Below, piece by piece: positions 20,827 to 51,361 of a DNA stretch of 64,000 bases (position 1 is its first letter; each line of letters starts with the position of its first letter). Both the position numbers and the translations under genes were made by a program. The notes under the pieces were generated by a model. It was not told the origin of the DNA. It made no database searches and saw only the letters and a list, made by a program, of their open reading frames with translations. This DNA is from Candidatus Woesebacteria bacterium (lineage in GTDB: Bacteria; Patescibacteriota; Microgenomatia; UBA1400; PJMF01). The DNA is taken from the NCBI GenBank assembly GCA_017999345.1, contig JAGNLY010000003.1, positions 4,138 to 68,137 of the forward strand, written 5' to 3'.

Positions 20827-20857
20827 TTTGACCCATGGCAGATTTTCTTCACTTGTT
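20827..20857 (+). promoter_or_regulatory. pre-23S processing stem, 3' strand
   Basis: Complement of 17567-17600 (see that feature). Confidence 0.7.
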
Positions 20858-20998: not shown

Positions 20999-21116
20999 TT
21001 CTGGTCTCTAGAGCGAGGTGGAACCAACTCTTCCCTTCCCGAACAGAGTCTTGAAACTCCTCAGCGCTGACAATAGTGCACGGGCAACTGTGTGTGAAGA
21101 TAGGTCGAGGCCAGAA
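20999..21116 (+). rRNA. rrf: 5S ribosomal RNA
   Basis: ttctggtc...ccgaacagag...ggccagaa. Terminal helix extends into the flanks (acgtttaattctgg / ccagaattaagcgt) and is followed by a T9 run. Confidence 0.88.
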
Positions 21117-21156
21117 TTAAGCGTTTTTTTTGTGCCTTTTTATATATAATAGGATC

Positions 21157-25244: not shown

Positions 25245-26015
25245 ATGCCTCGATATTTTTCAAAGAATTGGATAGATTTTATTTGGGTCATGACTCATAA
25301 AGAGATCAAGGCCAGGTACAAAAGAGCATTTTTGGGATTCTTATGGATATTTTTAAATCCTTTGCTTCAAATGATTGTCATAGGTTACATATTTCAATTT
25401 TTTGTTCCTGTAAAAATTGATCATTATTTTAATTTTTTATTTTCTGGATTACTTCCATGGAATTTTATTTCATATACAGTATTAAAATGCACTCCGTTAA
25501 TTTACAACGAGAGATCATTAATACAAAAAGCAAAATTTCCTAGAGAAGCCTTAGTACTTTCTATTATATTTTCCAACTTATTTCATTTTCTTATATCCAT
25601 CGGAATTTTGCTTATATTTACAATTTTATTTGGTTCGATTTCAATAGCCAAAATTGTATTGCTAATATTTGCAATTTTTATTATGACAATATTCGTAACT
25701 GGTTTATCATTTTTGTTATCTGCATTATATGTAAAGTATCGAGATATTAAATTTATTGTTAATGCTTTAGTTCCACTTTGGTTTTATGCAACTCCAGTTG
25801 TATACACAAGATCTTTATTAGCGGGCTGGCTTGATAAAATAATTCAATTTAATCCTATTACTGGAATAATTGAGTTATTTCAATATATTTTTACTGATGC
25901 CGTTGCTGTTAACCAATTGGTTTTAGGAAAATCTATAATTATTTCAGTCGTTGTTTTTATTCTTGGTATTTATGTTTTTTCACGGGAATCAGAATATTTT
26001 GATGATTGGCTATAA
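25245..26015 (+). CDS. polysaccharide/teichoic-acid ABC exporter permease (ABC-2, Wzm/TagG-like)
   Basis: 256 aa, 6 TM. N-terminal KEIKARYKRAFLGFLWIFLNPLLQM is typical of ABC-2 type glycan exporters. Confidence 0.85.
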   Translation: MPRYFSKNWIDFIWVMTHKEIKARYKRAFLGFLWIFLNPLLQMIVIGYIFQFFVPVKIDHYFNFLFSGLLPWNFISYTVLKCTPLIYNERSLIQKAKFPREALVLSIIFSNLFHFLISIGILLIFTILFGSISIAKIVLLIFAIFIMTIFVTGLSFLLSALYVKYRDIKFIVNALVPLWFYATPVVYTRSLLAGWLDKIIQFNPITGIIELFQYIFTDAVAVNQLVLGKSIIISVVVFILGIYVFSRESEYFDDWL

Positions 26016-26017
26016 AT

Positions 26018-26752
26018 ATGAAAAAAAGCAAAAGTATCGTAATTGATGCTAAAAATATATCAAAAAAATATTTATTGAGACATGAAAAACCAACATTTGT
26101 GGAAAACCTGCTTTATAAATCAAAAACTGAATACCATACGGCATTGGACGATGTAACTTTATCTATTTTTAAAGGGGACAGACTAGGAATAATTGGAAAA
26201 AATGGTTCAGGAAAAACAACTTTGCTTAAGCTTTTCTCAGGCATCACAAGGCAGCAAACGGGCAAGCTATCTATCCATGGTAAAGTTGTATCATTAATCG
26301 ACTTAGAAGCAGGTTTTCATCCAGATTTATCTGGTGAAGATAATATTTTTTTACAAGGATTAATTCTTGGAATGAGTGTAAATGAATTATCTGAAAAAAA
26401 GAGTGAAATTATTCAATTTGCAGAGATTGGTAAGTTTATTGATGCTCCAGTATATACGTATTCAAGTGGAATGAAATTGAGATTAGGTTTTTCTATAGCA
26501 ATTCACTCTAATCCAGATATATTGCTTTTAGATGAAAATTTTGCAGTTGGTGACGAAGCTTTTAGAAATAAAATTCGTATTAAATTTAAGGAGTTTCGTA
26601 AGAATAATATAACATTAATATTGGTGAGTCACTGGATTGAGGAGCTAGAAAAAAGTTGCAATAAATTTTTGTGGTTAGATAATGGAAGAGTTGTTGCTTA
26701 TGGTGGTAAGAAAGTTATTGAAAAATATAAAAAGTCATTTTTGAACAAATAA
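26018..26752 (+). CDS. polysaccharide/teichoic-acid ABC exporter ATPase (Wzt/TagH-like, short form)
   Basis: Walker A GKNGSGKTTL, signature YSSGMKLRLGFS, Walker B ILLLDENFAVGD. ATG 26018 lies just after the permease stop. Confidence 0.88.
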   Translation: MKKSKSIVIDAKNISKKYLLRHEKPTFVENLLYKSKTEYHTALDDVTLSIFKGDRLGIIGKNGSGKTTLLKLFSGITRQQTGKLSIHGKVVSLIDLEAGFHPDLSGEDNIFLQGLILGMSVNELSEKKSEIIQFAEIGKFIDAPVYTYSSGMKLRLGFSIAIHSNPDILLLDENFAVGDEAFRNKIRIKFKEFRKNNITLILVSHWIEELEKSCNKFLWLDNGRVVAYGGKKVIEKYKKSFLNK

Positions 26753-36843: not shown

Positions 36844-37566
36844 TTATTTGTTTGCCTTGAATAATTTTCTTATTATAGTTGAAAAGATAAAATTTGGAAT
36901 GACGATTAAATATCGTCTCCATAATCTTTTTGGTTCTGTAATTAACCTGAAAAGCCATTCCATCCCAATTTGTTGTATAAACTTAGGAGCCTGTTTTTTA
37001 TTATTGGTGATAAAGTCAAAGGCAGCACCCACGCAGAAAACAGTAGTTTTTTTAAGTCTAGATTTTAGTCTTGCAGCTAGTTCAACTTGTTTGGGAGAGC
37101 CAATTCCAATCCACAGGACGTCTGGCTGGATTTTAATAATCTTGTTTAATATTTCTTGTTCTTTTTTGTTAGAATCAGATTTTTTAATGAACAAATAGTA
37201 TTGAAATTGGTTTTTATCGAGTGTCTTCTTCTCTAATTTATGGAGTGTTTGTGCATCGGTACCTAAAAATACACTTGAAAAATTTTTTCTTTTTACTTTT
37301 TTCAAAATTGAGAGCATTAGGTTGGGGCCGTACACTCTATCAATAATAAAATTATTTTTAAATCTAAACCACCATGTTAGCCACATGCTATCCGTAGTAT
37401 ATATGTCAATTTTATTATAAAAGGTGTTACTTTTAGCTTGAGCCAGAGAATGAAGATCGCAAGGAAGAACGATTATTGTTTTTTGTTTTCCAATTTTACT
37501 ATTAATATTGTCTGCGACTGATTCAAAATCTCCTAGGATAAACTTGTCGCTATAAATACTCTTCAT
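36844..37566 (-). CDS. WecB/TagA/CpsF-family glycosyltransferase (GT26)
   Basis: VLWIGIGSPKQVELA..., FCVGAAFDFITNNKKQAPKFIQQIGMEWLFRLITEPKRLWRRY. Start at ATG 37566. Confidence 0.85.
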   Translation of the reverse strand: MKSIYSDKFILGDFESVADNINSKIGKQKTIIVLPCDLHSLAQAKSNTFYNKIDIYTTDSMWLTWWFRFKNNFIIDRVYGPNLMLSILKKVKRKNFSSVFLGTDAQTLHKLEKKTLDKNQFQYYLFIKKSDSNKKEQEILNKIIKIQPDVLWIGIGSPKQVELAARLKSRLKKTTVFCVGAAFDFITNNKKQAPKFIQQIGMEWLFRLITEPKRLWRRYLIVIPNFIFSTIIRKLFKANK

Positions 37567-37698
37567 AATATATAATCTTTTAGATCGGACTGTTTTTTTT
37601 GATGTCTTACAATGTTGCTTAATCCACAAGCATGCAGTTAGTATAACCTAATTTTTTTAATTTCTTATCAAAGTTATGAACAATTTTAAAGAAAAAGT

Positions 37699-38334
37699 AT
37701 GCCAGAAATAACCAAAAACTATAAAAATTTGACTATTCTCGAAAAAATATTCCTTTTTATACGTTACATTACGGCTCCTTTTGCTAGTTTAAGTAAATAT
37801 CTTCCTAAAAAAGGATTAATTTTAGATGTTGGTTGTGGTCCCGGATTACTTGAAAGTTATTTTACTAACAAAAATGATAAGTTGTTTTTTATTGGAATTG
37901 ATCCAGATCGAAAAAAGATAAAGATTGCTTCAAAACTAATCTTTGAGAGAGCGAGATTTGTTTGCGGCTACTTAGAATCTTTTTTAACTAAGTTAAAATT
38001 TGATTGCATTACCTTGATTGACGTGGAGTATTTGTTAAATACTCAAGAAAAGATAGGGTTATTAAATCAATGTACTAAGCTTTTAAATAAAGATGGAATG
38101 ATTCTACTCAAAACAAATGATGACAATGGAAGCATTGGATTTAAGCTAGGAAAGCTTCAAGAATTCTTTTCTTTAAAGATTGGGATTACAAAATCCAATA
38201 ATTCAATTAATTTTTTGACAGTCGAGGAATACAAAAGTATTTTTAACCAAATTGGTCTAAAAGTTGTTGATGAAAAAAGATTGCACACCAGGTTTTTTCA
38301 TACCCACTATTTGTTTGTTTTAAAACGTAATTGA
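37699..38334 (+). CDS. class I SAM-dependent methyltransferase
   Basis: Motif I ILDVGCGPGLL, then GIDPD... Confidence 0.75.
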   Translation: MPEITKNYKNLTILEKIFLFIRYITAPFASLSKYLPKKGLILDVGCGPGLLESYFTNKNDKLFFIGIDPDRKKIKIASKLIFERARFVCGYLESFLTKLKFDCITLIDVEYLLNTQEKIGLLNQCTKLLNKDGMILLKTNDDNGSIGFKLGKLQEFFSLKIGITKSNNSINFLTVEEYKSIFNQIGLKVVDEKRLHTRFFHTHYLFVLKRN

Positions 38335-38423: not shown

Positions 38424-39416
38424 ATGACTAAACCTAAAGAAAACGTAGTTATTTTAGTTGCTGGAGCTGGTGGTTTTATTGGCGGACACTTAGTCAAGTA
38501 TTTATTTGAATTAGGCTACAGACAAATTAGAGCAGTTGATATTAAGCCATTGGATGACTGGTATCAGAAGAGCCAGATGGCTGAGAACATAAGTTTAGAT
38601 TTGAGAGATCTTAAAAATTGCCAAACTGTTACTCGTGGAGTAGATGAAGTTTACAATTTAGCTGCAGATATGGGCGGCATGGGGTTTATCGAAGCTAATA
38701 AAGCTTTGTGTATGTTGAATGTTTTGATTAATACTCATTTGCTAATTGCAGCTAAAGATAATGGTATAAAACGATTTTTTTTCTCTTCCTCAGCTTGTGT
38801 TTATGCAAAAGACAAGCAACAACGTACTGATATGGATGGCCTAAAAGAGTCCGATGTTTATCCAGCAATGCCAGAAGATGGTTACGGTTGGGAAAAACTG
38901 TTTTCAGAGCGTATGTGTAGGCATTTTATGGAAGATTTTGGCTTAGAAACCAGAGTAGCTCGTTTTCATAATGTTTATGGTCCTCATGGCGAATATAAAG
39001 GTGGAAGAGAAAAAGCTCCGGCGGCAATTATTCGCAAGGTAGTATCAGCTCAAAAAACAGAAATGAATGAAATTGAAATTTGGGGAGATGGCAAACAGTC
39101 GCGTACTTTTATGTTTATAGATGATTGTGTAAAAGGCATTGATTTAATCATGCATAGCGATATTAGAGAACCAATTAATTTAGGGAGAAGTGAGTTAGTT
39201 ACTATAAATGAACTTGTTACTATCGTAGAATCAATCGCAAAAATCAAGTTGAAGCGCATTCATAACTTGAACGCTCCTCAGGGTGTCCGTGGAAGAAGTA
39301 GTGACAACACTTTAATTAGGAAGTTGTTGAATTGGGAACCTACTATTCCTTTGCAAGAGGGAATAGAAAAAACTTATGAGTGGATTAAAGGAGAGATGAA
39401 GAATGGCCAAAATTAA
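38424..39416 (+). CDS. gme: GDP-mannose 3,5-epimerase
   Basis: GAGGFIGGHL, NLAADMGGMGFI (recalled GME signature), SSACVY, YGWEKL, GGREKAPAA, GDGKQSRTF.FIDDCV, GVRGRSSDN. Collinear with plant GME as recalled. Confidence 0.85.
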   Translation: MTKPKENVVILVAGAGGFIGGHLVKYLFELGYRQIRAVDIKPLDDWYQKSQMAENISLDLRDLKNCQTVTRGVDEVYNLAADMGGMGFIEANKALCMLNVLINTHLLIAAKDNGIKRFFFSSSACVYAKDKQQRTDMDGLKESDVYPAMPEDGYGWEKLFSERMCRHFMEDFGLETRVARFHNVYGPHGEYKGGREKAPAAIIRKVVSAQKTEMNEIEIWGDGKQSRTFMFIDDCVKGIDLIMHSDIREPINLGRSELVTINELVTIVESIAKIKLKRIHNLNAPQGVRGRSSDNTLIRKLLNWEPTIPLQEGIEKTYEWIKGEMKNGQN

Positions 39417-40878
39417 AAAGCGCTGGAAGGAAGTTTTAATTATTTTTTCCTTTTGCCTTTTATTCTTCATTCCAAGGTATTTTGCTAGTAATTTATTTGA
39501 TCCAATGGAAGATGAATTTCTATCTTTCATGTTTTCAAGAGATCTTGGATTTGGGAAATTGCTATTGGCACCAGATTATGTTCATCCAGGATTATGGTAT
39601 GCGTTGATGAGAATTCCTATTATCTTTTTCAACACAGGAATAGACATAGGCTTGTATAGGTCAATTCAAGTTTTGATTATATTTTTTTGTTTAGTTTTTT
39701 CATATATTCATTTTAGAAAAAAGTTGTCTAATTCTTTTTTGTTTATTTTTTTTACACTATTTTTGAGTAACATATTTATTGTTCACATAACCATTCAATA
39801 CAGAATGTTTTCAATGATGCTGGGTTTAGCTGTGATTTATTCTTTATTTTGGTTTGAGCTAATAAAAAATAAGGGAGTTCTTTCTTATAAAAAAGTTTTG
39901 CTTTTATCCGTTCTAGCTGTAGTTGGATTTTTTACTGATTACAGCATGATATGGATTATTCCTTTTTGGCCTTTAGTTTATTTATTTTGTCAAAAAAAAT
40001 TAAATTTATTATCTTCACACTTTAAGAAAATATATTTATTCTTTTTCACAGTTTTTATTGGCTTGATCTGGTTCTTACCAATTTTTATTCAGAACATAAA
40101 GCAATCATTACCAGATAATAATTGGCTCCCTCCATTTAACCTTAAAAATATTCTGGAAATATTTGGCACTAGTTTCGGTGTAATTCCTCTAGTAGATTTG
40201 TCTAAATTAAATTTTTTGATTGTTCCTTATACGCTTATATTAGTTTATATAATTTGGAAGACTTTTAAGAAAAATATTAATACAAACTTAAGAAAAATGT
40301 TTGTAGGAATCTTTTTAATATTAATATTTTTTTTGATATCAAATTATTTCGTAAATAACAAACTTTTTTATGCAAGAGCGATATTATCTTTGATTCCTGT
40401 TTTCTACATTTTGTTAGCAGATTTTTTAACTACCTTTCTAAAGATAAGCCCATTTAAAAAAATATTTGTTTTACTTGTATTGATTCAATTGAGCCAATTT
40501 ATAATATATTTTTTTCAAAGTGATACTGTATTTGAAAAATATAGTTACTTTAATTTTCAAAAGCACCCAATGGCTTTTTTTAGCAATTTTCCATTTTTAT
40601 ACAACAGTTGTTTGTTACCAATTCCTGGATGGAATTCAACTTCGTTAGAATATTTTTTTGAGTCAAAAATAAATGTAATTTCAATCGAGAGTTTAAATGA
40701 CCAACTAAGTGACACCAATAAGGACTGTGCAAATATTTATCTCTTAGATCAAATCTCTGTTGAAAGAGATCAAATTGATGTTAAATATGATTATAAAATA
40801 TTAACGCAACTTGGCTATCAACCAAGAAAACTGAGTGAAAATTATAACCAAGTACTTTTTATTTTAGAGAAACATTAA
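39403..40878 (+). CDS. polytopic membrane protein, putative GT-C glycosyltransferase (paralog 1)
   Basis: 491 aa, about 11 TM. First-loop acidic motif FDPMEDE, then HPGLWY. Homologous along its full length to the next gene. Confidence 0.5.
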   Translation: MAKIKKRWKEVLIIFSFCLLFFIPRYFASNLFDPMEDEFLSFMFSRDLGFGKLLLAPDYVHPGLWYALMRIPIIFFNTGIDIGLYRSIQVLIIFFCLVFSYIHFRKKLSNSFLFIFFTLFLSNIFIVHITIQYRMFSMMLGLAVIYSLFWFELIKNKGVLSYKKVLLLSVLAVVGFFTDYSMIWIIPFWPLVYLFCQKKLNLLSSHFKKIYLFFFTVFIGLIWFLPIFIQNIKQSLPDNNWLPPFNLKNILEIFGTSFGVIPLVDLSKLNFLIVPYTLILVYIIWKTFKKNINTNLRKMFVGIFLILIFFLISNYFVNNKLFYARAILSLIPVFYILLADFLTTFLKISPFKKIFVLLVLIQLSQFIIYFFQSDTVFEKYSYFNFQKHPMAFFSNFPFLYNSCLLPIPGWNSTSLEYFFESKINVISIESLNDQLSDTNKDCANIYLLDQISVERDQIDVKYDYKILTQLGYQPRKLSENYNQVLFILEKH

Positions 40879-40880
40879 AA

Positions 40881-42341
40881 ATGGAATTTCTTTTAAAAAA
40901 CAAAAAATTTCAAACCTTTTTACTTTTTACTTCTTTTTGCTTACTTTTTTTTGTTCCAAGATATTTTGCTAGCACTAGATACGATGCCTTAGAAGATGAG
41001 ATCTTGGCAATTCAAAATAATATGAATTATTCAGTTAAAGAATTTATCTTCGCTCCAGATTTTACTCATCCAGGATTTTGGTACATGTTAATGGATTTTC
41101 CAACAAGTATATTGGGCATTAGTCACGGAATTTTTTATTATAGATTGATACAGGTTTTAAATTTATTAGTTTTAATAATTTTTGCATTTTTTTATTTTAG
41201 AAAGAAATTGTCAAATGTTTTTATTTTAATATTTTTTATACTATTTTTTACCAATATATATTTGGTTCATTTAACTGTTCAGCATAGAATGTATTCTTTA
41301 GTATTGGGATTAAGCATAATTTATTCTTTTTATTGGTATCATCTTTTTCTAAAGAAAAATGTAATTTCTTATAAAGAGGCAATATATTTGGGGGTACTAG
41401 CGTCAGCAAGCTTTTTTACGAATTATAGTGTTATATGGCTAATTCCCATTTGGCCATTGGCATATCTTGTATATAAAAGGAGCTTCCCAGTTCTAAAAAA
41501 AATGTCGGTATTTGGTTTAACAATTTTAACTTGTGTGGGGTGGTTTATACCTATTTTTATAAAAAATGCAAATACAAGTATAACTCATAATCAATGGACT
41601 CAACATTTTAGCTTGAGAAACTTTTTACAACTTATCGGTAATTATTTTGGTCTAATTCCTAGAAATTTAGGCACAAATGAAATCAATTTTTTTGTTTTGC
41701 CTTTTATATTTTTATTTATCTTTATTATTATTTGGATGATTTTTGTTAAAAAAATCATTTATATGAGATATTTGTTTCTTTCCTTACTTATTTTTTTTGC
41801 AGCCTTTGTGTTTGCTGTTCGCATAACTGGCAATAGTTTGTTGTATGCAAGAACATCAATTCCATTTGTTGTTCTTGTATACGTCATGATTGCTGATTCT
41901 TTCATTAGGGGTAATAAAGTCATCAAATTTTTATCAATTTGTTTGATGATAATGCAGCTCTTTCAATTTTTTATTTATTTTTCTTCAAATAAAGAAATTG
42001 ATGAGATGTATCATTTATTTGATTATAAAGAAAACACCTTAGGTCATTTCAAAAAATATAAGTTTGAGGAGGGGAGTTGTTTGATTCCAATACCTGGATG
42101 GAATACTACCTCAGCACATTTTTTTCTTGATAAATCTGTAAAAGTTATTGCAACAGATCTCAAGGATGTTGATCAGGAATTAAAAAAAATGTCGAGTTGT
42201 TCGAAGATTTATGTTTTAGATCAAACTTCTGTTGATAGAACAATTACTAGCCAATTTTATCAATATTTTAATATAGCTGAATCAAAAATAGAACTGGTTG
42301 AGGTTTATATAAATCAGTCGTTATATGTTCTAGAAAATTAG
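40881..42341 (+). CDS. polytopic membrane protein, putative GT-C glycosyltransferase (paralog 2)
   Basis: 486 aa. Shares LLFF[IV]PRYFAS, D.[ML]EDE, HPG[LF]WY, FRKKLSN.F, CL[LI]PIPGWN[ST]TS, IY[LV]LDQ.SV.R with the previous gene. Confidence 0.5.
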   Translation: MEFLLKNKKFQTFLLFTSFCLLFFVPRYFASTRYDALEDEILAIQNNMNYSVKEFIFAPDFTHPGFWYMLMDFPTSILGISHGIFYYRLIQVLNLLVLIIFAFFYFRKKLSNVFILIFFILFFTNIYLVHLTVQHRMYSLVLGLSIIYSFYWYHLFLKKNVISYKEAIYLGVLASASFFTNYSVIWLIPIWPLAYLVYKRSFPVLKKMSVFGLTILTCVGWFIPIFIKNANTSITHNQWTQHFSLRNFLQLIGNYFGLIPRNLGTNEINFFVLPFIFLFIFIIIWMIFVKKIIYMRYLFLSLLIFFAAFVFAVRITGNSLLYARTSIPFVVLVYVMIADSFIRGNKVIKFLSICLMIMQLFQFFIYFSSNKEIDEMYHLFDYKENTLGHFKKYKFEEGSCLIPIPGWNTTSAHFFLDKSVKVIATDLKDVDQELKKMSSCSKIYVLDQTSVDRTITSQFYQYFNIAESKIELVEVYINQSLYVLEN

Positions 42342-42353: not shown

Positions 42354-43790
42354 TTATTTTGGTTTAAAAACAAGAAATTTACCTATTCTTTTATCAAATC
42401 TATAATTTGACCACATCGCAATATATGTTTGACTTGACCAATGCATATATTTGTTTGCCGTAGCTATTGCCAATGAGTCAGAATCTAATTGATAGAAATC
42501 TGGTTGTTGAATTGAAATCAAAATTAAATCCGCCTTTTTTGTATTAATATAATTTATTAAAATTGAGTTTTCTATTTGCTCTCTATGGAGCATTTGCGTC
42601 GTTGCAAAGGGATCAATTATAATTTCTTTACCTGCTAATGGCAAAAGCGCAATGCTATTATCATCAGCCAATATTTTATCTGCGCGTTGAATTTCATTTA
42701 ATAACTCATGTTCTGATTGTGAAAAATTTTGTTTTGATAAAGTTATAGTCTCTCTGAAATTTATATTAATTGCTAGATACACAATAATCAAAAGAAAACT
42801 TATAATGTCGCTATGTTTAACATTTCTAATTGATTTGGTTGTCAACCAAACCAACCCAATCGTAGCCTCAAGAAAATAATTTCCGTCAGATCCTGCTTTA
42901 AAGGCTGTAATTGTAATGAGCAAAGCAGCTAAAACATAGGAAACTAATTTTATGTCCTTAAAAAATTCCTTTTTAGTAAAATAAGCAATGATTACTAGTA
43001 GTAATAATAAAATGGCATTTTGGTAGAAAAAATTTCTAAGGAAGGGCAGGATATGGAGCAAAGACCAATCCATTTTAAAATTGACAGTAATTAAGTTAAA
43101 GTAAAAACTACCATTTGTTATCAGATTAATTATAAGAAATGGAATACCAATAAATGATATTAAATATTTAATAAGATTTGATAATTCTGAATATTTTTTT
43201 TCTGTTAATAAACCAACAATCATATATACAAATGCTGGTATTCCAATATTTTGTTTAGTTAACACAGCTAATGATAAAAATAATGCGCTATAAAATATTT
43301 TATGATGTTTAACTTTTTCAAAAACCCATATTGAAAAAATACTGAATGCTATGGCCAAACCACAGACTCTATTTAATGTAAACCATTTAATTAAGTCAGG
43401 TGAGCTAAAAAAGATTATAAAAAAAGTTAGCTTATTTAAATAACTTCTTCGATCCAAAGATATTAAAACTTTGAAAATAATCAGTAAAGAAATTATTGAT
43501 AAAAAACGGCCGCCAAAAAATGACTGACTCTCGCCAAAAATTATGTGATTTATACCATAAAAAACTGGAGTATAAGCATTTAAAAGTGAAGGCTCATTCT
43601 TGAATGAAGGATACATTTTGTTCCAATTAGGAAAATTGTTACTGTTTTGTAAAACATAGCCTTCGACTAAGTTTAGAGGAGCTTTATAGTTTAATTGGTT
43701 AATAGCTACAATAAAAAATCTAAAGCCAATTATTATTGCGACTAAAGTTAAAATAATTTCACTGATCGATAATTTCGGATATTTACGCAC
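42354..43790 (-). CDS. polytopic membrane protein, possibly GT-C-like
   Basis: 478 aa, at least 10 TM, soluble C-terminal ~110 aa. GTG start. Context among glycan genes. Family not recognised. Confidence 0.4.
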   Translation of the reverse strand: MRKYPKLSISEIILTLVAIIIGFRFFIVAINQLNYKAPLNLVEGYVLQNSNNFPNWNKMYPSFKNEPSLLNAYTPVFYGINHIIFGESQSFFGGRFLSIISLLIIFKVLISLDRRSYLNKLTFFIIFFSSPDLIKWFTLNRVCGLAIAFSIFSIWVFEKVKHHKIFYSALFLSLAVLTKQNIGIPAFVYMIVGLLTEKKYSELSNLIKYLISFIGIPFLIINLITNGSFYFNLITVNFKMDWSLLHILPFLRNFFYQNAILLLLLVIIAYFTKKEFFKDIKLVSYVLAALLITITAFKAGSDGNYFLEATIGLVWLTTKSIRNVKHSDIISFLLIIVYLAININFRETITLSKQNFSQSEHELLNEIQRADKILADDNSIALLPLAGKEIIIDPFATTQMLHREQIENSILINYINTKKADLILISIQQPDFYQLDSDSLAIATANKYMHWSSQTYIAMWSNYRFDKRIGKFLVFKPK

Positions 43791-43939: not shown

Positions 43940-45262
43940 TCAATCAAAATTAGATCCTGGATGGACAATGAAATCTAAACTTTTGCTTTTTTCAACTTTT
44001 TTTTGTTTGTATATCAGCTTCAAGATTTCAGAAATTATAAAATGTATCAGGTATTTGTGAATCTTTGGTTTTAAATAATTTCTTATTGAATTCAAAGACC
44101 TAACTTTTTTAATTCCATTTTTTTCAGCTACTTCATTGAATATGCTCCTAACTGGTTCAAATGCATGAAGATGCTGTTCAGAGTTAATCTCTTTAATAGC
44201 AATATTATTTTGTTTAAAAAATAATATCTGAGCTTCAATTTCTTTAGCAATTTCTTTTTTTGAAATTCTTTTAAATAAAAGTTTAATCAAAAAAACTGGG
44301 AGACTAAAAAATATTCCATTTCGATCAACTAAGCTTGGTATAATTTTAGGCTTTAGTATTGGTTTTCCTCTCAAAATGTTTATGTGGGCAATTATATTAG
44401 ATTCATTTATAACTTTTTTAAGCATCTGCAAATCATTGATAGAAACAAGGTTTGCAAAAATTGATACATGGGTAATTGATCCCGCTGTAGCTTGGTCTAA
44501 AATCGCATTATTGATTATTTTTGACATTCCATAGTCGTCAGCTACAATTTTTTTTGATACATCTGGTTGTAATTTTTTAAATGCAAATAATCTCATAAAG
44601 TCGATCAAGATTCCAGAAATTCTTTTTAAAGAGGAATAACTTTTTGGTTTTAGTTCTTGGATGGAAGTTGGAATTTCAATTATTTCGTTTTTAAGTTTTA
44701 GTAATAGTTCGTTATCGAATAGTTCATGTTTTGTTATTGTTTCCAGCAATATTTTTTTTAGTCTTTTTGTGTTCTTAAATGCCATTATTTTATGTCCATC
44801 AGTTCCTTTGAGTTCAAAAAAACGATATGAAAATAGCTCGATTAGCTTTGCAATAGCTATTTCAAAAAAAGGTCTGTAGTCATTATTATTTTCTGATTTT
44901 AAAGCACAAACAATATTTTTTGTTTTTAGTTTTATTAGTGATTTTTTTATAAAGTTTGTATCATGAAAATCAAGGTCTAGCACGAAAAGATATGCGCAAT
45001 TAGAGCTTAAAAGTCCATGCTTTATTGCTTGTCCGTATGATGAAAATGATATTCGTCTTTTTTTAATGAAACTGTATTTTTTTTCTAGGTTACATATTTC
45101 TTCCCATGAGTTATCCAAACTTCCGTTTTCAACTAAAATAATTTCGTTTATGGGTATCTTGGATTGTTTAAGAGTCTTAATAAAAACTTCTATTTTTATT
45201 GTCAAATTTTTCTCTTCATTATAAACAGGGAAAATATAGCTAGTTTTTATTTTCTTGAACAT
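43940..45262 (-). CDS. fusion protein: GT2 polyprenol-phosphate glycosyltransferase-like domain + YdjC/ChbG-family carbohydrate deacetylase domain
   Basis: N-terminus YIFPVYNEEKNL...ILVENGSLDNS...FVLDLDF (DPM1/GtrB-like GT2). C-terminus IVADDYGMSKIINNAILDQATAGSITHVSIFANL ... HLHAFEPV ... DFIVHPG (YdjC-like). Confidence 0.7.
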   Translation of the reverse strand: MFKKIKTSYIFPVYNEEKNLTIKIEVFIKTLKQSKIPINEIILVENGSLDNSWEEICNLEKKYSFIKKRRISFSSYGQAIKHGLLSSNCAYLFVLDLDFHDTNFIKKSLIKLKTKNIVCALKSENNNDYRPFFEIAIAKLIELFSYRFFELKGTDGHKIMAFKNTKRLKKILLETITKHELFDNELLLKLKNEIIEIPTSIQELKPKSYSSLKRISGILIDFMRLFAFKKLQPDVSKKIVADDYGMSKIINNAILDQATAGSITHVSIFANLVSINDLQMLKKVINESNIIAHINILRGKPILKPKIIPSLVDRNGIFFSLPVFLIKLLFKRISKKEIAKEIEAQILFFKQNNIAIKEINSEQHLHAFEPVRSIFNEVAEKNGIKKVRSLNSIRNYLKPKIHKYLIHFIISEILKLIYKQKKVEKSKSLDFIVHPGSNFD

Positions 45263-45395: not shown

Positions 45396-47711
45396 ATGCA
45401 TTTTTCTCCTAAAAAGACTATTTTTTTATCAATATTTGCTTGTTTTCAATTATTGATATTTTTAACTTTTTCAACAATGTACTCTTTCATAGTAATTGCG
45501 TTTTTTTTATCTTTTTTACTTTTTTATTCTTGGTATTTCAAGTTAAAAATGGCCTTGGATTTAAAAATCTTATTGCCTTGGATTTCATTTATTGTTTTAT
45601 TGGCAATTTCATCAATATTTACGCACAGTATTTCTTTAACTTTAGATGAAGTTATTTTTCATCTAGCATCATTTTGTATTTTCATGTTCTTTTTAAGTTT
45701 GGGTGAAAGTAGAATCTTTTCTAAGTCTGATTTTATTTCAACTTTTCTAATTATTGGCATAGTTTTTTCTATTTTTTTCATAGTATTCTTTAGTTTTTCA
45801 AATCTGACATTTTTTTTGCCACCATTAAATATCTTCACAGCAGTTAACGGGCATAGTCATATGGCGGCTGTATTGCTAATTTTAATACCGCTTTCATGGA
45901 TATTTGCTTCATCAAATAAATATTCAAACTTTAGTCATCGATACCTCTTGGTAGTTTTATTTTATATTTTGTTAGTGTTAAATTTTGGAAGATTTTCTAT
46001 TTTATTAGCTTTAATCCAATTACCATTTTTATATCTATCAATTTCAAAGAAGGTTATAAATAAAAAATATTTTTTAATGGCTATTTTTTTATTAGTATTT
46101 TCAATTATATCGATTGGCTATTTTTCATTTGATGATAGAAAAACTTGCAAAGTTAGAGAGTTTGATCTTCAGTTGTGCAAACCACTTGTTCATGAAGCCA
46201 GACCTGATTATTTTAGAAGAGCAATTTTAGGAATAAAAGACTTTCCATTTTTTGGCTATGGTCCTGGTACGTATAGGCTATTAAGTGCAAAATACAACTT
46301 TGATAATAAAAATTTATCAACTTTTGCTCATAATGTGTTTTTGGAGATGTATGCTGGATCTGGAATTTTTGTTGGCACTGCTTATTTAGTGTTAATTTTT
46401 ATTTTGTTTAAATTAATGTTTTCAGTACGAGAAAATGGATATAACACCATTATTTTAATTGGTTTAATGGGGTTGCTGCTGAATTCCTTTATGGATTATG
46501 ATTGGAATGGTTTTCCAATTTATCAAATGTCGATGATTTTTATTTCATTAGTGCTTTGGGATTATCAACAAAAAAAATCGTATTCTAGTAAAATTTCTAG
46601 TAAATTAATATGGAATTTATTAACTATATTAATAATTATTTTAGGATTAGTAAATTTAACAACGAAGTTATTAATCAACTTTGATAGAGATGAAGATGCT
46701 TTTAATTTTTTTCCACACTTTTATTTTCACTCAAATTATTTTTTAACCGAATCAAATATAACTAATGATCAGAAAAAAAAGTTATACGAACTTAATCCTT
46801 ATGACGAAAAGTATGTTTATCAAAATATTTCTGAATCAACTGATCCACAAGAAAAGTCTTTATTGTATGGGAGGCTTTTGGACATATCACCTTTGATTTC
46901 TATTAATTCTTCATATTTTGATAATTTGAAGCAAATTAATGACTACGAAATGTTGGCAAGTGTCGCCACTAAAGGATTCAATTTATTAAACCAAGCAGAA
47001 GTTAATTCTTATTTGCAAAAAGATAGACTTAAAAGTGAAATTTTAAGTGTTATTCATGAAGGATCGATAAGTCTTATTGAAAGTGGTAATTTAGATAGTG
47101 CAATAAATTACTATGACACTATCTTAGAAGTTGTTTTTAATGTGTCTTTGGAAAATAATTTTCATGTTTTTTATAGTGAGTATTACTCTCTATGGAGTTC
47201 TAATTTAAATACTTTTTTTGATAAACTTTATAAAAAAGACCCAGAAAAAGTCAGATTTGAGCTTCAAAAAATATATTCTTATGATGCTAACTCTAAAAAA
47301 AGAGATGGGGAAGTAACAGTTTTTGCATATGATATTCTTTCTGCATATGCTGTAAAACTTGCTAAGTCAGATTTGGAGAGCGGAAGGTTTTCAGATTCGG
47401 CCAAGATGCTTGTTATAGCTCAAAGTTTTAATAAGTGGGTTTTAAATGAGCTTCCAGATGATTTTTTTGATCTATTGAATGCTGATGTTGAAAATGAAAA
47501 AATATTTTGGTTGGCTATGGATGAATTTCCAGACGAATATTTTGTTAAGTTTAGTGGTTTAGCATATGAAAAGAATACCATTCTTCTTTTAGAAGAATCT
47601 GACTATGATGCTTTTAAAAAAAGGCTAGAAAGAATTTTAAAAATTGCTCATTGGATTGAAAATACCCAAGAATATAAAGATCTCTCAGAAAAATTTCTTC
47701 AAGATAATTAA
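45396..47711 (+). CDS. Wzy_C (O-antigen ligase/oligosaccharyltransferase-like) membrane domain + C-terminal helical-repeat domain
   Basis: 771 aa. About 400 aa polytopic with FAHNVFLEMYAGSGIFVGTAYLVLIF (Wzy_C loop). About 330 aa soluble helical, TPR-like tail. Confidence 0.65.
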   Translation: MHFSPKKTIFLSIFACFQLLIFLTFSTMYSFIVIAFFLSFLLFYSWYFKLKMALDLKILLPWISFIVLLAISSIFTHSISLTLDEVIFHLASFCIFMFFLSLGESRIFSKSDFISTFLIIGIVFSIFFIVFFSFSNLTFFLPPLNIFTAVNGHSHMAAVLLILIPLSWIFASSNKYSNFSHRYLLVVLFYILLVLNFGRFSILLALIQLPFLYLSISKKVINKKYFLMAIFLLVFSIISIGYFSFDDRKTCKVREFDLQLCKPLVHEARPDYFRRAILGIKDFPFFGYGPGTYRLLSAKYNFDNKNLSTFAHNVFLEMYAGSGIFVGTAYLVLIFILFKLMFSVRENGYNTIILIGLMGLLLNSFMDYDWNGFPIYQMSMIFISLVLWDYQQKKSYSSKISSKLIWNLLTILIIILGLVNLTTKLLINFDRDEDAFNFFPHFYFHSNYFLTESNITNDQKKKLYELNPYDEKYVYQNISESTDPQEKSLLYGRLLDISPLISINSSYFDNLKQINDYEMLASVATKGFNLLNQAEVNSYLQKDRLKSEILSVIHEGSISLIESGNLDSAINYYDTILEVVFNVSLENNFHVFYSEYYSLWSSNLNTFFDKLYKKDPEKVRFELQKIYSYDANSKKRDGEVTVFAYDILSAYAVKLAKSDLESGRFSDSAKMLVIAQSFNKWVLNELPDDFFDLLNADVENEKIFWLAMDEFPDEYFVKFSGLAYEKNTILLLEESDYDAFKKRLERILKIAHWIENTQEYKDLSEKFLQDN

Positions 47712-48308
47712 ATTAATTGATTGAAAAATTAATTTTAAATCCAATATGCTTGACCCATGTTTTATCGTTTCAAGCTCGAGTTTTTTCCAAGCTTGAAGTG
47801 ACTTGTATCTATTTTTCGATATTGCCCATTTTGATAAAATTCCTGGCCTTACAAGATATCTAAAGTTCCATTCTGCTGGAAGTTTTTTTGCTTCATCAAG
47901 AGGTAGCGGGCGAGGTCCAACGAAACTCATTTCACCTTTAAGTATATTTAATAGTTGTGGCGCTTCATCAATTCCTAACTTTGAAATAATTTTGCCAAAT
48001 TTGATGAACCTTGGATCATCATTAACTTTAAACATAGGGTATGGGGCAGTGCTTAGTTTTCTGTACTTACTTTGTTGTTTTTCGGAGCCATTTTTCATTG
48101 TTCTAATTTTATAAATAGTAAAAGGAACTTTATCTTTGCCCATTCTTTTTTGTTTAAAGATAAAAGGTTTGCCAATCAGAAATATAAATAGGGGATAGAT
48201 GATCGCTAGAAATGGAATTATAAATAAAATACCACTTACAGATAAAATAATATCAAAAAATCTTTTTTTAAATGAATGGTAGTATGAATGAATAATATAT
48301 TTAGCCAT
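47685..48308 (-). CDS. small monotopic phosphoglycosyl transferase (bacterial sugar transferase, PglC/WbaP C-terminal type)
   Basis: FIFKQKRMGKDKVPFTIYKIRTM...DEAPQLLNILKGEMSFVGPRPLP. Confidence 0.88.
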   Translation of the reverse strand: MAKYIIHSYYHSFKKRFFDIILSVSGILFIIPFLAIIYPLFIFLIGKPFIFKQKRMGKDKVPFTIYKIRTMKNGSEKQQSKYRKLSTAPYPMFKVNDDPRFIKFGKIISKLGIDEAPQLLNILKGEMSFVGPRPLPLDEAKKLPAEWNFRYLVRPGILSKWAISKNRYKSLQAWKKLELETIKHGSSILDLKLIFQSINLIILKKFF

Positions 48309-50209: not shown

Positions 50210-50698
50210 TTATTCTTGGCTCTGAGATGATTCTGAAGCAGTGTCAATTTTTGACGAATTGTCTTCTGATTCTAGAAGAGCATTTAGATTCTTTTTAGGT
50301 AGTGGAACAGCTGTGGCTTTTGGTTCAATATCGTCAATGGTGACTTCAATTGGAACCACTTTTTCATCTTTTCCATTTCTACTCACCAAAATCTTATAAA
50401 TTACGAAGGATGACAATTCCTGTTGAGTATATGAGTGTTTATCCTGAATTTTTAGCAAAGTATCTCTGTCAAAATTTGGAATAAGTGGCTTTGCGAGGTT
50501 AGTCAATTCTTTTGAAATTTCCTCTTTTGATTGAGAGGTAATTAAACTAATAGAAATCCAAAAAAGGATTGATACAAAAAGCAAAATAAGTATGGTCAAA
50601 AATTGCCTATTTGTTTTTAGACCCTGCAAATCCTTTTTGATTTCGCTTCTTGAGTTAGGGCTTGCTGATATAATTTCATTCATAGTTTTTTTATTCAA
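50210..50698 (-). CDS. hypothetical single-pass membrane protein (pilus-operon context)
   Basis: 162 aa. TM FLTILILLFVSILFWISISLI. 3 nt downstream of the pilO-like gene. Confidence 0.6.
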   Translation of the reverse strand: MNKKTMNEIISASPNSRSEIKKDLQGLKTNRQFLTILILLFVSILFWISISLITSQSKEEISKELTNLAKPLIPNFDRDTLLKIQDKHSYTQQELSSFVIYKILVSRNGKDEKVVPIEVTIDDIEPKATAVPLPKKNLNALLESEDNSSKIDTASESSQSQE

Positions 50699-50701
50699 AC
50701 T

Positions 50702-51337: not shown

Positions 51338-51361
51338 CTTTTAAATAATTATTATTTCAAT

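What the first reader, a model, noticed from the sequence alone, without database searches (positions are those of the whole stretch)
43940..45262. Single-polypeptide fusion of a GT2 (polyprenol-phosphate glycosyltransferase-like) and a YdjC-family deacetylase
The N-terminal ~230 aa look like DPM1/GtrB/ArnC-type GT2, though the usual DDGS is ENGS and DxD is LDLD. The C-terminal ~200 aa carry YdjC hallmarks: ADDYGMS...G.ITH.S..AN, H.H, HPG. In Francisella, separate enzymes FlmF2 (GT2), NaxD (YdjC family) and FlmK (ArnT-like GT-C) make Und-P-GalNAc, deacetylate it to Und-P-GalN, and transfer it outside the membrane. Here the first two steps appear fused, and GT-C-like genes are adjacent. This predicts a lipid-linked amino-sugar donor for extracytoplasmic modification of a wall polymer or protein, in an organism with no lipid A.
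Basis: partly seen in the sequence, partly recalled or inferred. Interest (0 to 1): 0.65.

Follow-up and report, generated by a model that had tools for sequence, protein, structure and literature searches.

The report
Fused sugar-lipid synthase and deacetylase gene
One gene of an uncultured Woesebacteria (CPR) bacterium joins a glycosyltransferase of the type that loads sugars onto a lipid carrier to a YdjC-type deacetylase, next to the membrane enzymes that would use such a lipid-linked amino sugar; the fusion is real and conserved, but in this copy the glycosyltransferase half has lost residues that every relative keeps.

Summary
Window 43940-45262, on the minus strand, is one uninterrupted 440-aa ORF. 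Pfam finds Glycos_transf_2 at residues 9-114 and YdjC at residues 239-393.

The same architecture occurs in at least 43 clusters at 50% identity. It also occurs as two adjacent overlapping genes, so it is not an assembly artefact.

The GT2 half is closest in sequence and fold to the polyprenyl-phosphate glycosyltransferases ArnC, DPMS and GtrB. It has no transmembrane helices. Elsewhere the same GT2 subfamily is fused to GT-C membrane domains. The window's paralogs at 39403-42341 are homologous to those domains, and a model of the 40881-42341 copy has the ArnT/STT3 fold.

The YdjC half keeps all five ChbG catalytic positions.

There is one qualification. In this protein and its 84% relative, residues invariant in 46 other members are replaced. 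These include the Arg and Ser/Thr equivalents that bind the acceptor phosphate in ArnC and DPMS. dN/dS in that half is about three times higher. The glycosyltransferase activity of this particular copy is therefore doubtful.

No flippase was found. Nothing has been tested biochemically.

Verdict: a new variant of a known kind, of moderate interest.

The parts
43940..45262 (-). Whole ORF: a 440-aa GT2-YdjC fusion protein with no predicted transmembrane helix.
   Evidence: ORF list and translation. Pfam. 100% match to an NCBI Woesebacteria protein. AF2 model with pLDDT 89.3 and pTM 0.90. Hydropathy scan finds no TM segment.
44933..45262 (-). GT2 donor-binding half (residues 1-110). It contains PVYNE, VENGS (45119-45130), SYG and D96-L-D98-F-H-D (44969-44977). 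It is conserved like its relatives.
   Evidence: All family-conserved positions are kept except Q23K. dN/dS against P0002 is 0.11. It aligns to ArnC, GtrB and DPMS.
44555..44932 (-). GT2 acceptor/juxtamembrane half (residues 111-236). Its signature is eroded: K122 is kept, but E134/I137/A138 replace R..R-T, GTDGHKIMAF replaces GTDTHGIKAF, DNE replaces DTE, and ELKPKSY replaces ELRPSRY.
   Evidence: Eleven of the twelve family-conserved GT2 positions that differ in the window lie in residues 120-208. The site table covers 46 other members. Mapping to ArnC R128/R137/S141/R205 comes and PMC12690121. dN/dS is 0.33, against 0.10 in the sister pair.
43943..44554 (-). YdjC-type de-N-acetylase domain (residues 237-440). 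It contains ADDYG (44528-44542), H293 (44384-44386), SEQHLH (44165-44182) and HPG (43955-43963).
   Evidence: Pfam YdjC E 6.4e-28. PDB profile hits to 2i5i, 7vi8 (ChbG) and 8jqe. Catalytic residues of KpChbG are taken from PMC9402603. Only 1 of 32 conserved positions differs, L296I. dN/dS is 0.13.
42354..43790 (-). 478-aa membrane protein with about 9-10 TM segments, immediately downstream on the same strand. It is possibly GT-C-like, but this is unproven.
   Evidence: No Pfam, NCBIfam or PDB hit. It is a near-orphan. hhalign against GT2-GT-C fusions gives only 31% probability, around 'LSLAVLTKQ'. No terminator-like site lies between it and the fusion gene. It is the positional analogue of the membrane proteins downstream of the fusion in L001, L008 and L009.
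40881..42341 (+). 486-aa GT-C-fold glycosyltransferase (TM486) with an invariant D39-E40 (in the conserved E38-D39-E40 stretch) in the loop after TM1.
   Evidence: AF2 with 31 sequences gives pLDDT 92.7 and pTM 0.92. Foldseek top hits are ArnT 5f15/5ezm, STT3, ALG12, AftA/B and Pmt4. hhalign against the membrane part of GT2-GT-C fusions gives 96.7% probability, E 4.4e-10. Invariant D39 and E40.
39403..40878 (+). 491-aa tandem paralog of TM486 (38% identity), presumed to be GT-C.
   Evidence: BLAST E 2.5e-105. HMM of the TM486 family, 582 bits.
37699..38334 (+). Class I SAM methyltransferase. Homologs recur next to the fusion gene in other lineages.
   Evidence: Pfam. Homologs lie beside the fusion in L001, L009 and L014. 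GT2-methyltransferase fusions exist in the same GT2 subfamily. The homology to them is only class-level.
38424..39416 (+). NAD-dependent sugar-nucleotide epimerase/reductase.
   Evidence: Pfam Epimerase E 2.4e-45. Closest NCBIfam model is GDP-fucose synthase, below cutoff.
36844..37629 (-). WecG/TagA/CpsF-family glycosyltransferase. It acts on a Und-PP-linked linkage unit.
   Evidence: Pfam E 1.1e-42. NCBIfam superfamily model above cutoff.
45396..47711 (+). 771-aa Wzy_C (O-antigen ligase/polymerase-like) membrane protein, divergently transcribed from the fusion gene.
   Evidence: Pfam Wzy_C E 1.3e-10. It is syntenic with the fusion in L004, L005, L006 and L007.
47685..48308 (-). Small monotopic polyprenyl-phosphate phosphoglycosyl transferase (Bac_transf).
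   Evidence: Pfam E 3.6e-47. In the sister clade its gene overlaps the 3' end of the fusion gene.
25245..26752 (+). Wzm/Wzt-type ABC-2 transporter pair belonging to the same glycan cluster.
   Evidence: Pfam ABC2_membrane and ABC_tran. Homologs lie near the fusion in L001, L008 and L009.

Best explanation
The gene encodes a cytoplasmic, probably membrane-peripheral, two-domain enzyme. It belongs to a family found mainly in Patescibacteria.

Proposed function of the family (inferred):
1. The N-terminal GT2 has no TM helices and is ArnC/DPMS/GtrB-like. It transfers an N-acetylhexosamine from a UDP-sugar to polyprenyl phosphate.
2. The fused YdjC domain is a metal-dependent hydrolase. It removes the N-acetyl group on the cytoplasmic face, giving polyprenyl-P-hexosamine.
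3. The lipid-linked amino sugar is flipped across the membrane. No flippase has been identified.
4. The neighbouring GT-C enzymes (TM486, TM491, perhaps TM478) use it to decorate a surface glycopolymer. That polymer would be built by the surrounding cluster: phosphoglycosyl transferase, WecG/TagA, GT1/GT2/GT4 enzymes, a Wzm/Wzt exporter and Wzy_C proteins.

What is shown: the domain identities, the catalytic-residue conservation, the GT-C fold of the neighbour, and the fusion and gene-order links.

What is inferred: the lipid acceptor, the sugar, the order of the steps, the topology and the final acceptor.

For this particular copy, the deacetylase is predicted to be active. The GT2 acceptor site has lost its family-invariant residues. 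The GT2 domain is probably impaired or retargeted, and may survive as a UDP-sugar-binding, lipid-binding or scaffolding module. In that case another enzyme would supply the lipid-linked HexNAc.
For: Domains: Pfam GT2 plus YdjC.

GT2 type:
- A PDB profile aligns the family to E. coli ArnC residues 7-228, including the juxtamembrane helices, and to DPMS and GtrB.
- Foldseek top hits for the AF2 model are ArnC (8.6e-11), DPMS and GtrB.
- The family keeps K122, R134 or R137, and S/T138. These correspond to ArnC R128/R137/S141 and DPMS R117/R131/S135, which hold the acceptor phosphate. It also keeps R205.

Rosetta-stone links:
- The same GT2 subfamily is fused to GT-C membrane domains; P0085 matches PMT_2 at 1.4e-12.
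- The window's TM486/TM491 are homologous to that membrane domain (hhalign 96.7%).
- A model of TM486 has the ArnT/STT3 fold.

YdjC:
- D242, D243, H293, E362 (His in some members) and H434 match KpChbG D10, D11, H61, H125 and H206.

Linkage of the two activities:
- Fused in at least 43 clusters.
- Encoded as adjacent overlapping genes in L010 and L014.

Context recurs across lineages: GT-C-like membrane proteins, methyltransferase, PGT, WecG, Wzy_C and the ABC transporter.

Erosion in this copy.

Precedent for the chemistry: NaxD, a YdjC-family enzyme, deacetylates Und-P-GalNAc (PMC11279074). Three-component GT2/flippase/GT-C systems are also described (PMC11127046).
Against: - There is no biochemical evidence at all.
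- The GT2 has no transmembrane helices.
- In most family members the first Asp of DxD, proposed as the catalytic base in ArnC, is Asn. The metal-binding Gln is replaced by an aromatic residue or His.
- No GtrA-, SMR- or MATE-type flippase gene is in the cluster. Only MurJ is present, about 7 kb away.
- In the sister clade the fusion gene is translationally coupled to an epimerase and a phosphoglycosyl transferase. That arrangement would also fit a role in building a Und-PP-linked repeat unit.
- In one lineage (L003) the gene is not in a glycan cluster.
- TM478, the gene most likely to be co-transcribed, could not be shown to be GT-C.
- For this copy, dN/dS of 0.33 is still below 1. The GT2 half is therefore not free of selection and may simply have changed specificity.
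Confidence: 0.6

Rival explanations
1. The GT2 domain is an ordinary cytoplasmic chain-building transferase. It adds a HexNAc to a Und-PP-linked sugar made by the neighbouring phosphoglycosyl transferase, and the YdjC domain then deacetylates that residue within the repeat unit. A free-amine sugar would thus be built into the polymer backbone rather than delivered from outside by a GT-C enzyme.
For: - In the sister clade, epimerase, fusion and small Bac_transf PGT genes overlap in one operon.
- The GT2 lacks TM helices.
- It deviates from the DADLQ motif of Pren-P GTs.
- The cluster contains WecG/TagA and several GT1/GT2 enzymes that act on Und-PP intermediates.
Against: - The best sequence and fold matches over the full catalytic domain plus juxtamembrane helices are Pren-P GTs.
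- The family keeps the acceptor-phosphate triad.
- The same GT2 subfamily is repeatedly fused to GT-C domains, which use Pren-P-sugar donors.
- The genes directly downstream are GT-C-like membrane proteins in several lineages.
Confidence: 0.2
2. In this lineage the protein works only as a deacetylase. The GT2 half is a pseudo-enzyme domain kept for folding, membrane or substrate docking, or partner binding. A separate enzyme elsewhere in the genome makes the lipid-linked HexNAc. This refines the best explanation rather than excluding it.
For: - Six residues invariant in 46 relatives are replaced in the window and in P0002/P0003. P0002 has additionally lost K122, T154, D155 and R214.
- dN/dS of the GT2 C-half is 0.33, against 0.10 in the sister pair. 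The YdjC half stays at 0.13.
- The epimerase-fusion-PGT operon is broken up in this lineage.
Against: - The donor-binding half is fully conserved (dN/dS 0.11).
- K122, D128, R130, D155 and H157 are kept in the window.
- A nearby Lys (K139, K205, K207) may replace each lost Arg.
- dN/dS is still well below 1.
- No second Pren-P GT of this subfamily is present in the 64 kb window, and the rest of the genome could not be searched.
Confidence: 0.45
3. The pair acts on a membrane lipid that is not a polyprenyl carrier, as HpnI/HpnK do on bacteriohopanetetrol. It would make a cationic glucosaminyl lipid as an end product.
For: - The best NCBIfam hit of the YdjC half is HpnK (E 7.9e-20).
- A distant GT2-YdjC fusion (P0206) is directly followed by a B12-binding radical SAM gene, as in hpnI/J/K.
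Against: - The HpnK score of 71 bits is far below the 232.6 cutoff.
- The GT2 is ArnC/DPMS-like.
- There are strong fusion and neighbourhood links to GT-C transferases, which need a donor rather than an end-product lipid.
- No hopanoid genes are in the window.
Confidence: 0.07
4. The fusion is an artefact (a frameshift or assembly join of two genes), or it is a catabolic ChbG-like chitobiose deacetylase.
For: - Split versions with separate GT2 and YdjC genes exist.
- NCBI names the protein a ChbG/HpnK family deacetylase.
Against: - The same in-frame architecture is found in dozens of independent assemblies, down to 30% identity.
- The AF2 model has pTM 0.90.
- The ChbG equivalog scores 57.6 against a cutoff of 227.
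- The context is biosynthetic, with no chb or PTS genes.
Confidence: 0.02

Closest known systems
Francisella FlmF2 / NaxD / FlmK (and Bordetella LgmA / LgmC / LgmB): lipid A galactosamine or glucosamine modification
   Same: The chemical logic is the same. An ArnC-like GT2 makes Und-P-HexNAc, a YdjC-superfamily deacetylase converts it to Und-P-HexN, and an ArnT-like GT-C transfers it outside the membrane. The NaxD function is cited from PMC11279074. The roles of FlmF2, FlmK and the Lgm proteins are from my own knowledge and the titles and abstracts.
   Different: - Here the first two enzymes are one polypeptide.
- The GT2 has no TM helices.
- The organism is a Woesebacteria (CPR) bacterium, so the acceptor cannot be assumed to be lipid A.
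- There are two or three GT-C paralogs rather than one.
- Relatedness of this YdjC domain to NaxD specifically could not be tested, because no NaxD sequence or model was available in the tools.
ArnC / ArnD / ArnT (Und-P-L-Ara4FN synthesis, deformylation, transfer)
   Same: A Pren-P GT2 is followed by removal of an N-acyl group at the lipid-linked stage, and then by GT-C transfer. ArnC is the best structural and profile match of the GT2 half. ArnT is the best fold match of the neighbouring TM486.
   Different: - ArnD is a CE4-type deformylase, not a YdjC enzyme (from knowledge).
- ArnC has two TM helices and a DADLQN motif. This protein has none of the helices, and its motif reads D-L-D-F-H-D.
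- The ArnC R137, S141 and R205 equivalents are missing in this copy.
Three-component extracytoplasmic glycosylation systems (GtrB/GtrA/Gtr*; C. youngae ORF15/ORF14/ORF12)
   Same: A lipid-P-sugar synthase and a GT-C transferase decorate a polymer that can be ABC-transporter dependent. ORF15 is itself a fusion of a carrier-charging enzyme with an enzyme that edits the lipid-linked sugar (PMC11127046).
   Different: No flippase gene was recognised here. The editing step is de-N-acetylation rather than dephosphorylation.
Hopanoid HpnI / HpnK / HpnJ
   Same: A GT2 adds GlcNAc to a membrane lipid and a YdjC-family enzyme deacetylates it (from knowledge). HpnK is the top NCBIfam hit of the C-terminal half.
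   Different: The score is far below the HpnK cutoff. The lipid would be a carrier, not an end product. No hopanoid genes are nearby.
ChbG (chitooligosaccharide deacetylase; PDB 7VI8) and EF_3048 (2I5I)
   Same: Same YdjC fold and the same catalytic constellation: Asp-Asp, His, His/Glu, His.
   Different: - ChbG is a soluble catabolic enzyme of about 250 aa.
- This domain is about 204 aa.
- Pfam matches only model positions 4-155 of 266.
- The domain has family-specific hydrophobic helices at residues 316-333 and 400-416.
Mycobacterial PpgS (Rv3631) / Rv3779 galactosamine decoration of arabinogalactan
   Same: It is a wall polymer, not lipid A, that is decorated with a free-amine hexosamine by a GT-C enzyme. 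Rv3779 is cited from PMC7502851. The role of PpgS in making polyprenyl-P-GalNAc is from my own knowledge; the primary paper was not held.
   Different: The proteins are separate, and to my knowledge the deacetylase is not identified there.

Membership tests
GT2 / GT-A glycosyltransferase (Pfam PF00535) | Profile match above the curated cutoff | tested here: met
   35.0 bits against a cutoff of 23.3, residues 9-114.
GT2 / GT-A glycosyltransferase (Pfam PF00535) | GT-A fold and a DxD motif | tested here: met
   The AF2 model matches GT-A enzymes at Foldseek probability 1.00. D96-L-D98 is present.
Polyprenyl-phosphate glycosyltransferases (ArnC/GtrB/DPMS type) | Closest similarity over the catalytic domain plus juxtamembrane helices | tested here: met
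   The profile aligns to ArnC residues 7-228. The top Foldseek hits are ArnC, DPMS and GtrB.
Polyprenyl-phosphate glycosyltransferases (ArnC/GtrB/DPMS type) | Acceptor-phosphate triad (ArnC R128/R137/S141 = DPMS R117/R131/S135) | tested here: not met
   The window has K122 but E134/I137 and A138. All 46 other family members keep a basic residue at 134 or 137, and all but one keep S/T138. The feature is met for the family and not for this copy.
Polyprenyl-phosphate glycosyltransferases (ArnC/GtrB/DPMS type) | DxDLQ metal/base motif and the donor-phosphate Arg (ArnC R205) | tested here: inconclusive
   The window reads D-L-D-F-H-D, with Gln replaced by His. Most relatives have N-x-D-F-(F/Y/W). 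R205 is Lys in the window and Arg in all the others.
Polyprenyl-phosphate glycosyltransferases (ArnC/GtrB/DPMS type) | C-terminal transmembrane helices | tested here: not met
   No TM segment by hydropathy. TM-less members such as human DPM1 are known, but that is from my own knowledge.
Polyprenyl-phosphate glycosyltransferases (ArnC/GtrB/DPMS type) | Forms polyprenyl-P-sugar from a nucleotide sugar | not testable with these tools
   This needs an enzyme assay.
YdjC family (Pfam PF04794) | Profile match above the curated cutoff | tested here: met
   98.8 bits against a cutoff of 29.7, though only model positions 4-155 of 266 are matched. PDB profile hits to 2i5i, 7vi8 and 8jqe.
YdjC family (Pfam PF04794) | Catalytic set as in KpChbG: base D10, metal ligands D11/H61/H125, acid H206 | tested here: met
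   D242, D243, H293, E362 (Glu here, His in 5 of the 24 fused members) and H434. D242, D243, H293 and H434 are invariant across the 24 fused members; position 362 is always Glu or His. The same motifs recur in the standalone and split-form YdjC proteins. The H434 to H206 correspondence rests on the shared C-terminal HPG motif and the NCBIfam ChbG alignment (residues 240-435 to model positions 8-203), not on a residue-level structural superposition.
ChbG equivalog (NF002559) / HpnK (TIGR03473) | Score above the equivalog cutoff | tested here: not met
   57.6 against 227, and 71.2 against 232.6.
NaxD-type lipid-linked HexNAc deacetylase | YdjC-superfamily enzyme genetically coupled to a Pren-P GT2 and a GT-C transferase | tested here: met
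   It is fused to the GT2. GT-C genes are adjacent. Split forms occur as adjacent genes.
NaxD-type lipid-linked HexNAc deacetylase | Deacetylates Und-P-GalNAc or Und-P-GlcNAc; specific sequence relatedness to NaxD | not testable with these tools
   No NaxD sequence or model is in the libraries. The primary paper is not held.
Three-component extracytoplasmic glycosylation system | GT-C transferase present | tested here: met
   A model of TM486 has the ArnT/STT3/ALG/Aft fold. TM491 is its paralog.
Three-component extracytoplasmic glycosylation system | Dedicated flippase (GtrA, SMR or MATE type) in the locus | tested here: not met
   None was found among the ORFs between 21 and 50 kb. MurJ at 52031-53722 is the only MOP-family protein.

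The most novel reading that the evidence does not exclude
Patescibacteria use a single fused 'charge-and-edit' enzyme to make a lipid-linked free-amine hexosamine. A set of previously unclassified GT-C enzymes then installs it on their surface polymer, giving a cationic wall decoration in a lineage without lipid A. In the window's lineage the glycosyltransferase half has become a pseudo-enzyme domain, retained under purifying selection beside an active deacetylase. That would be a rare example of a pseudo-glycosyltransferase serving as a docking module.
Probability: 0.3. Interest if true: 0.6.

Novelty: new variant of a known kind. Interest (0 to 1): 0.45.

Why it matters
Almost nothing is known experimentally about the cell envelope of CPR/Patescibacteria.

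This locus gives a concrete, testable prediction. These bacteria would make a polyprenyl-P-hexosamine donor with one fused enzyme and attach it outside the membrane with ArnT-like GT-C enzymes. Those GT-C enzymes currently have no Pfam or NCBIfam family.

The modular GT2 subfamily occurs standalone and fused to YdjC, to a methyltransferase or to GT-C. That offers a Rosetta-stone map of which enzymes edit and consume lipid-linked sugars.

The eroded GT2 half in this copy is a natural experiment on which residues a Pren-P glycosyltransferase needs.

The chemistry itself is not new. It is the NaxD/ArnD logic.

Tried and rejected
- The + strand reading of the stated coordinates has stops throughout. 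The gene is on the minus strand.
- TM478 could not be classified. There was no Pfam or NCBIfam hit and no PDB sequence hit. Only one distant homolog was found. hhalign against GT2-GT-C fusions gave 31%. Its GT-C status is left open.
- A PDB sequence search with the TM486/TM491 profile found nothing. Only the fold search worked.
- The afdb50 library was unavailable. UniProt-wide architecture and taxonomy of the fusion could not be surveyed.
- The cluster-member look-up returned no names. Taxonomy of the distant fusions therefore remains unknown.
- The primary papers on NaxD (PMC3841722) and on mycobacterial GalN (PMC3009860) are not held. The identity of PDB 8JQE could not be traced.
- The promoter scan was not above chance, and no terminator-like sites were found.
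- Homology of the window methyltransferase to the methyltransferase domain of GT2-MT fusions scored 96.8% by hhalign. I treat this only as shared class I fold, not as orthology.
- The other GT2 genes in the window (21130-22080, 26735-27628, 32227-33078) are not Pren-P-GT-like. No second copy of this subfamily is in the window.
Full report
**1. Observation**

The stated interval holds a single ATG-started ORF of 440 codons, but on the minus strand. The + strand reading is full of stops.

Pfam finds two domains:
- Glycos_transf_2 at residues 9-114 (E 1.8e-8, 35.0 bits, cutoff 23.3)
- YdjC at residues 239-393 (E 6.4e-28, 98.8 bits, cutoff 29.7)

NCBIfam gives only sub-threshold hits. For the C-terminal half these are HpnK (71 bits, cutoff 233) and ChbG (58 bits, cutoff 227). 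For the N-terminal half they are weak ArnC, PgfS and PgaC hits.

The identical protein is deposited as 'ChbG/HpnK family deacetylase [Candidatus Woesebacteria bacterium]'. The window also carries 23S and 5S rRNA and has about 26-31% G+C around the gene, so the gene looks native.

**2. The fusion is real and conserved**

- A word-indexed search found 26 clusters of 439-466 aa with both Pfam domains, down to 30% identity. The named ones are Woesebacteria, Pacebacteria and 'Patescibacteria group'.
- A profile of 24 members (A1) was run against 1.84 billion representatives. At least 43 of the top 150 hits span the whole profile.
- Ten of the more distant hits all carry both Pfam domains. Two of them have a full-length canonical YdjC.
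- In two genomes (L010, L014) the same GT2 and YdjC are separate adjacent genes whose stop and start overlap.

Fusion and split forms of the same pair are classic evidence that the two activities work together.

**3. What kind of GT2 is it**

Profiles of the family align to E. coli ArnC over residues 7-228, that is, the catalytic domain plus the juxtamembrane helices. They also align to GtrB and DPMS.

The AF2 model (pLDDT 89.3, pTM 0.90) has ArnC, DPMS and GtrB as its best Foldseek matches (E about 1e-10).

The ArnC paper (PMC12690121) names these functional residues:
- The acceptor phosphate is held by ArnC R128/R137/S141, equivalent to DPMS R117/R131/S135.
- The donor phosphate is held by R205.

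In the alignment these correspond to family K122, position 134 (Arg, or Arg one helical turn later at 137), S/T138 and R205. All are conserved across 22 other fusions and 24 standalone members.

The family differs from canonical enzymes in three ways:
- It has no transmembrane helix.
- The first Asp of DxD is usually Asn.
- The metal-binding Gln is not kept.

ENGS is the family norm and a conservative form of D(D/N)GS, so it is not a defect.

**4. Rosetta-stone and neighbourhood evidence for a GT-C consumer**

The same GT2 subfamily occurs in four forms:
- standalone, about 235 aa
- fused to YdjC
- fused to a SAM methyltransferase, about 465 aa
- fused to a membrane domain of 10 or more TM helices, about 640-770 aa; P0085 matches Pfam PMT_2 at E 1.4e-12

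The window's tandem paralogs at 39403-40878 and 40881-42341 have no Pfam, NCBIfam or PDB sequence hit. By profile-profile comparison, however, they are homologous to that fused membrane domain (hhalign 96.7%, E 4.4e-10).

An AF2 model of the second paralog (31 sequences, pLDDT 92.7, pTM 0.92) matches GT-C enzymes: ArnT (5f15, TM 0.56/0.52), STT3, ALG12, AftA/B and Pmt4. It has an invariant D39-E40, within the conserved E38-D39-E40 stretch, in the loop after TM1.

In other lineages the fusion gene is followed directly by two conserved multi-TM proteins with 'LPFYWDT' and 'AGDEGVQLL' loops. One of them gives weak HMM hits to the GT-C part of the fusions.

The window's directly downstream gene (42354-43790) is the positional analogue. 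It is a near-orphan and could not be classified.

Recurrent neighbours across lineages are a methyltransferase, WecG/TagA, a small phosphoglycosyl transferase, Wzy_C proteins and a Wzm/Wzt ABC transporter. In the window these sit in a glycan cluster of about 27 kb.

**5. The deacetylase half**

HMMER alignments to EF_3048 (2I5I) and KpChbG (7VI8) were combined with the ChbG structure paper (PMC9402603). That paper assigns D11/H61/H125 as metal ligands, D10 as the base and H206 as the acid. The window equivalents are:
- D243, H293 and E362 as metal ligands
- D242 as the base
- H434 (in HPG) as the acid

In the fused members, position 362 is Glu in 19 and His in 5. The standalone and split-form YdjC proteins show the same Glu/His alternation. 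Both residues can bind metal.

The other four catalytic positions are invariant in the fused members, and the same motifs recur in the standalone forms. Only one of 32 family-conserved YdjC positions differs in the window, a conservative L296I.

**6. The twist: this copy's GT2 acceptor half is eroded**

Twelve of 44 family-conserved GT2 positions differ in the window, eleven of them in residues 120-208. Six residues that are identical in all 46 other members examined, or nearly so, are replaced:
- no Arg at 134 or 137 (E134, I137)
- A138 for S/T
- K158 for G
- M160 for K/R
- K205 for R
- N184 for T/S

The 84%-identical P0002/P0003 share these changes. They have further lost K122, T154, D155 and R214, so this is not a sequencing error.

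Nei-Gojobori dN/dS values:

| Pair | Residues 1-110 | Residues 111-236 | YdjC half |
|---|---|---|---|
| Window vs P0002 | 0.11 | 0.33 | 0.13 |
| Sister pair P0004 vs P0007 | 0.09 | 0.10 | 0.15 |

Constraint on the acceptor half is therefore relaxed about three-fold, but not abolished.

The sister clade's overlapping epimerase-fusion-PGT operon is also broken up in this lineage. No second copy of the subfamily lies in the window.

**7. Mechanism**

For the family, the best-supported model is as follows. A peripheral cytoplasmic enzyme loads HexNAc onto polyprenyl phosphate and de-N-acetylates it. The resulting lipid-P-hexosamine is flipped and used by the adjacent GT-C enzymes to decorate a surface polymer.

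This is the logic of NaxD (PMC11279074), of ArnC/ArnD/ArnT, and of three-component systems (PMC11127046).

Shown: the domain identities, residue conservation, fold of the GT-C neighbour, and fusion and gene-order links.

Inferred: the acceptor lipid, the sugar, the order of steps, the topology and the final acceptor.

For this copy I predict an active deacetylase. I give roughly even odds that the GT2 half is catalytically impaired or retargeted.

**8. Weaknesses**

- There is no biochemistry.
- No flippase was found in the locus.
- The operon with a PGT in the sister clade also fits a role in building a Und-PP-linked repeat unit.
- One lineage has the gene outside a glycan cluster (L003).
- Taxonomy of the distant fusions is unknown.
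- The UniProt/AFDB survey was impossible.

**9. Novelty**

I found no paper describing a GT2-YdjC fusion. Databases annotate these proteins only generically.

The chemistry is a known kind. What is new is the single-polypeptide form, the TM-less Pren-P-GT-like subfamily with its modular partners, the unclassified GT-C family next door, the CPR host and the eroded GT2 half.

I rate it a new variant of a known kind, with interest 0.45.

Noticed in passing
L088 10001-11551 and flanks (protein P0206): A distant GT2-YdjC fusion (516 aa, with a full-length canonical YdjC) sits in an operon with four B12-binding radical SAM genes, one of which overlaps its 3' end. The operon also holds a DegT aminotransferase, a GT9 heptosyltransferase, a DUF2079 protein and a PMT_2 GT-C. 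The arrangement is reminiscent of hopanoid hpnI/hpnK/hpnJ, so a lipid-linked aminocyclitol or otherwise remodelled amino sugar may be made there.
   Followed up: partly
P0079, P0081, P0087, P0095 (about 465 aa); P0085, P0104, P0108, P0113, P0114, P0117, P0129, P0133, P0094 (639-773 aa): The same TM-less GT2 subfamily is fused to a class I SAM methyltransferase in some proteins and to a GT-C-like membrane domain in others. Standalone copies are common in Myxococcota genomes.
   Followed up: partly
window 27610-28590 (-): A 326-aa protein matches Pfam RGP (reversibly glycosylated polypeptide / UDP-arabinopyranose mutase family) at E 1.1e-49. This family is mainly known from plants. The gene lies inside the bacterial glycan cluster, which hints at a furanose sugar in the polymer.
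   Followed up: no
window 39403-42341 (+): Two tandem paralogs (38% identical) belong to a GT-C-fold family that has no Pfam, NCBIfam or PDB sequence match. The family has at least 30 relatives, all 472-500 aa, with an invariant D39-E40 (within the conserved E38-D39-E40 stretch) after TM1.
   Followed up: yes
window 42354-43790 (-): A near-orphan 478-aa multi-TM protein lies directly downstream of the fusion gene. Only one weak homolog turned up among 5.8 billion proteins.
   Followed up: partly
window 45396-47711 (+) and 29812-31365 (+); pilus genes 50210-51961 (-): There are two Wzy_C (O-antigen ligase/polymerase-like) proteins. One has a C-terminal extension of about 350 aa. They lie a few kb from PilN-type pilus assembly genes that are syntenic in relatives. 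Pilin or surface-protein O-glycosylation is a possible target of the cluster.
   Followed up: no
window 48367-50115 (-): A 582-aa predicted surface protein has an N-terminal TM segment, Pur_ac_phosph_N (FN3-like) and Big_6 domains, a long acidic low-complexity stretch and a C-terminal TM segment. It lies in a locally G+C-richer segment (38% against about 28%).
   Followed up: no
window 17097-21116; L003 6200-9900: 23S and 5S rRNA are preceded by a tRNA, and no 16S rRNA is in the window. In another lineage (L003) the fusion gene lies directly beside the 23S/5S genes.
   Followed up: no
L004 14269-15969; L005 3645-5345: A carbamoyltransferase (Carbam_trans_N/C) preceded by a 63-aa ORF lies near the fusion gene in relatives (directly downstream in L005, about 3 kb away in L004) but is absent from the corresponding place in the window. 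O- or N-carbamoylation of the sugar is possible in those lineages.
   Followed up: no
window 33075-35672 (+): An 865-aa protein with an N-terminal TM segment, a PQQ-like beta-propeller and DUF5060 lies inside the glycan cluster.
   Followed up: no
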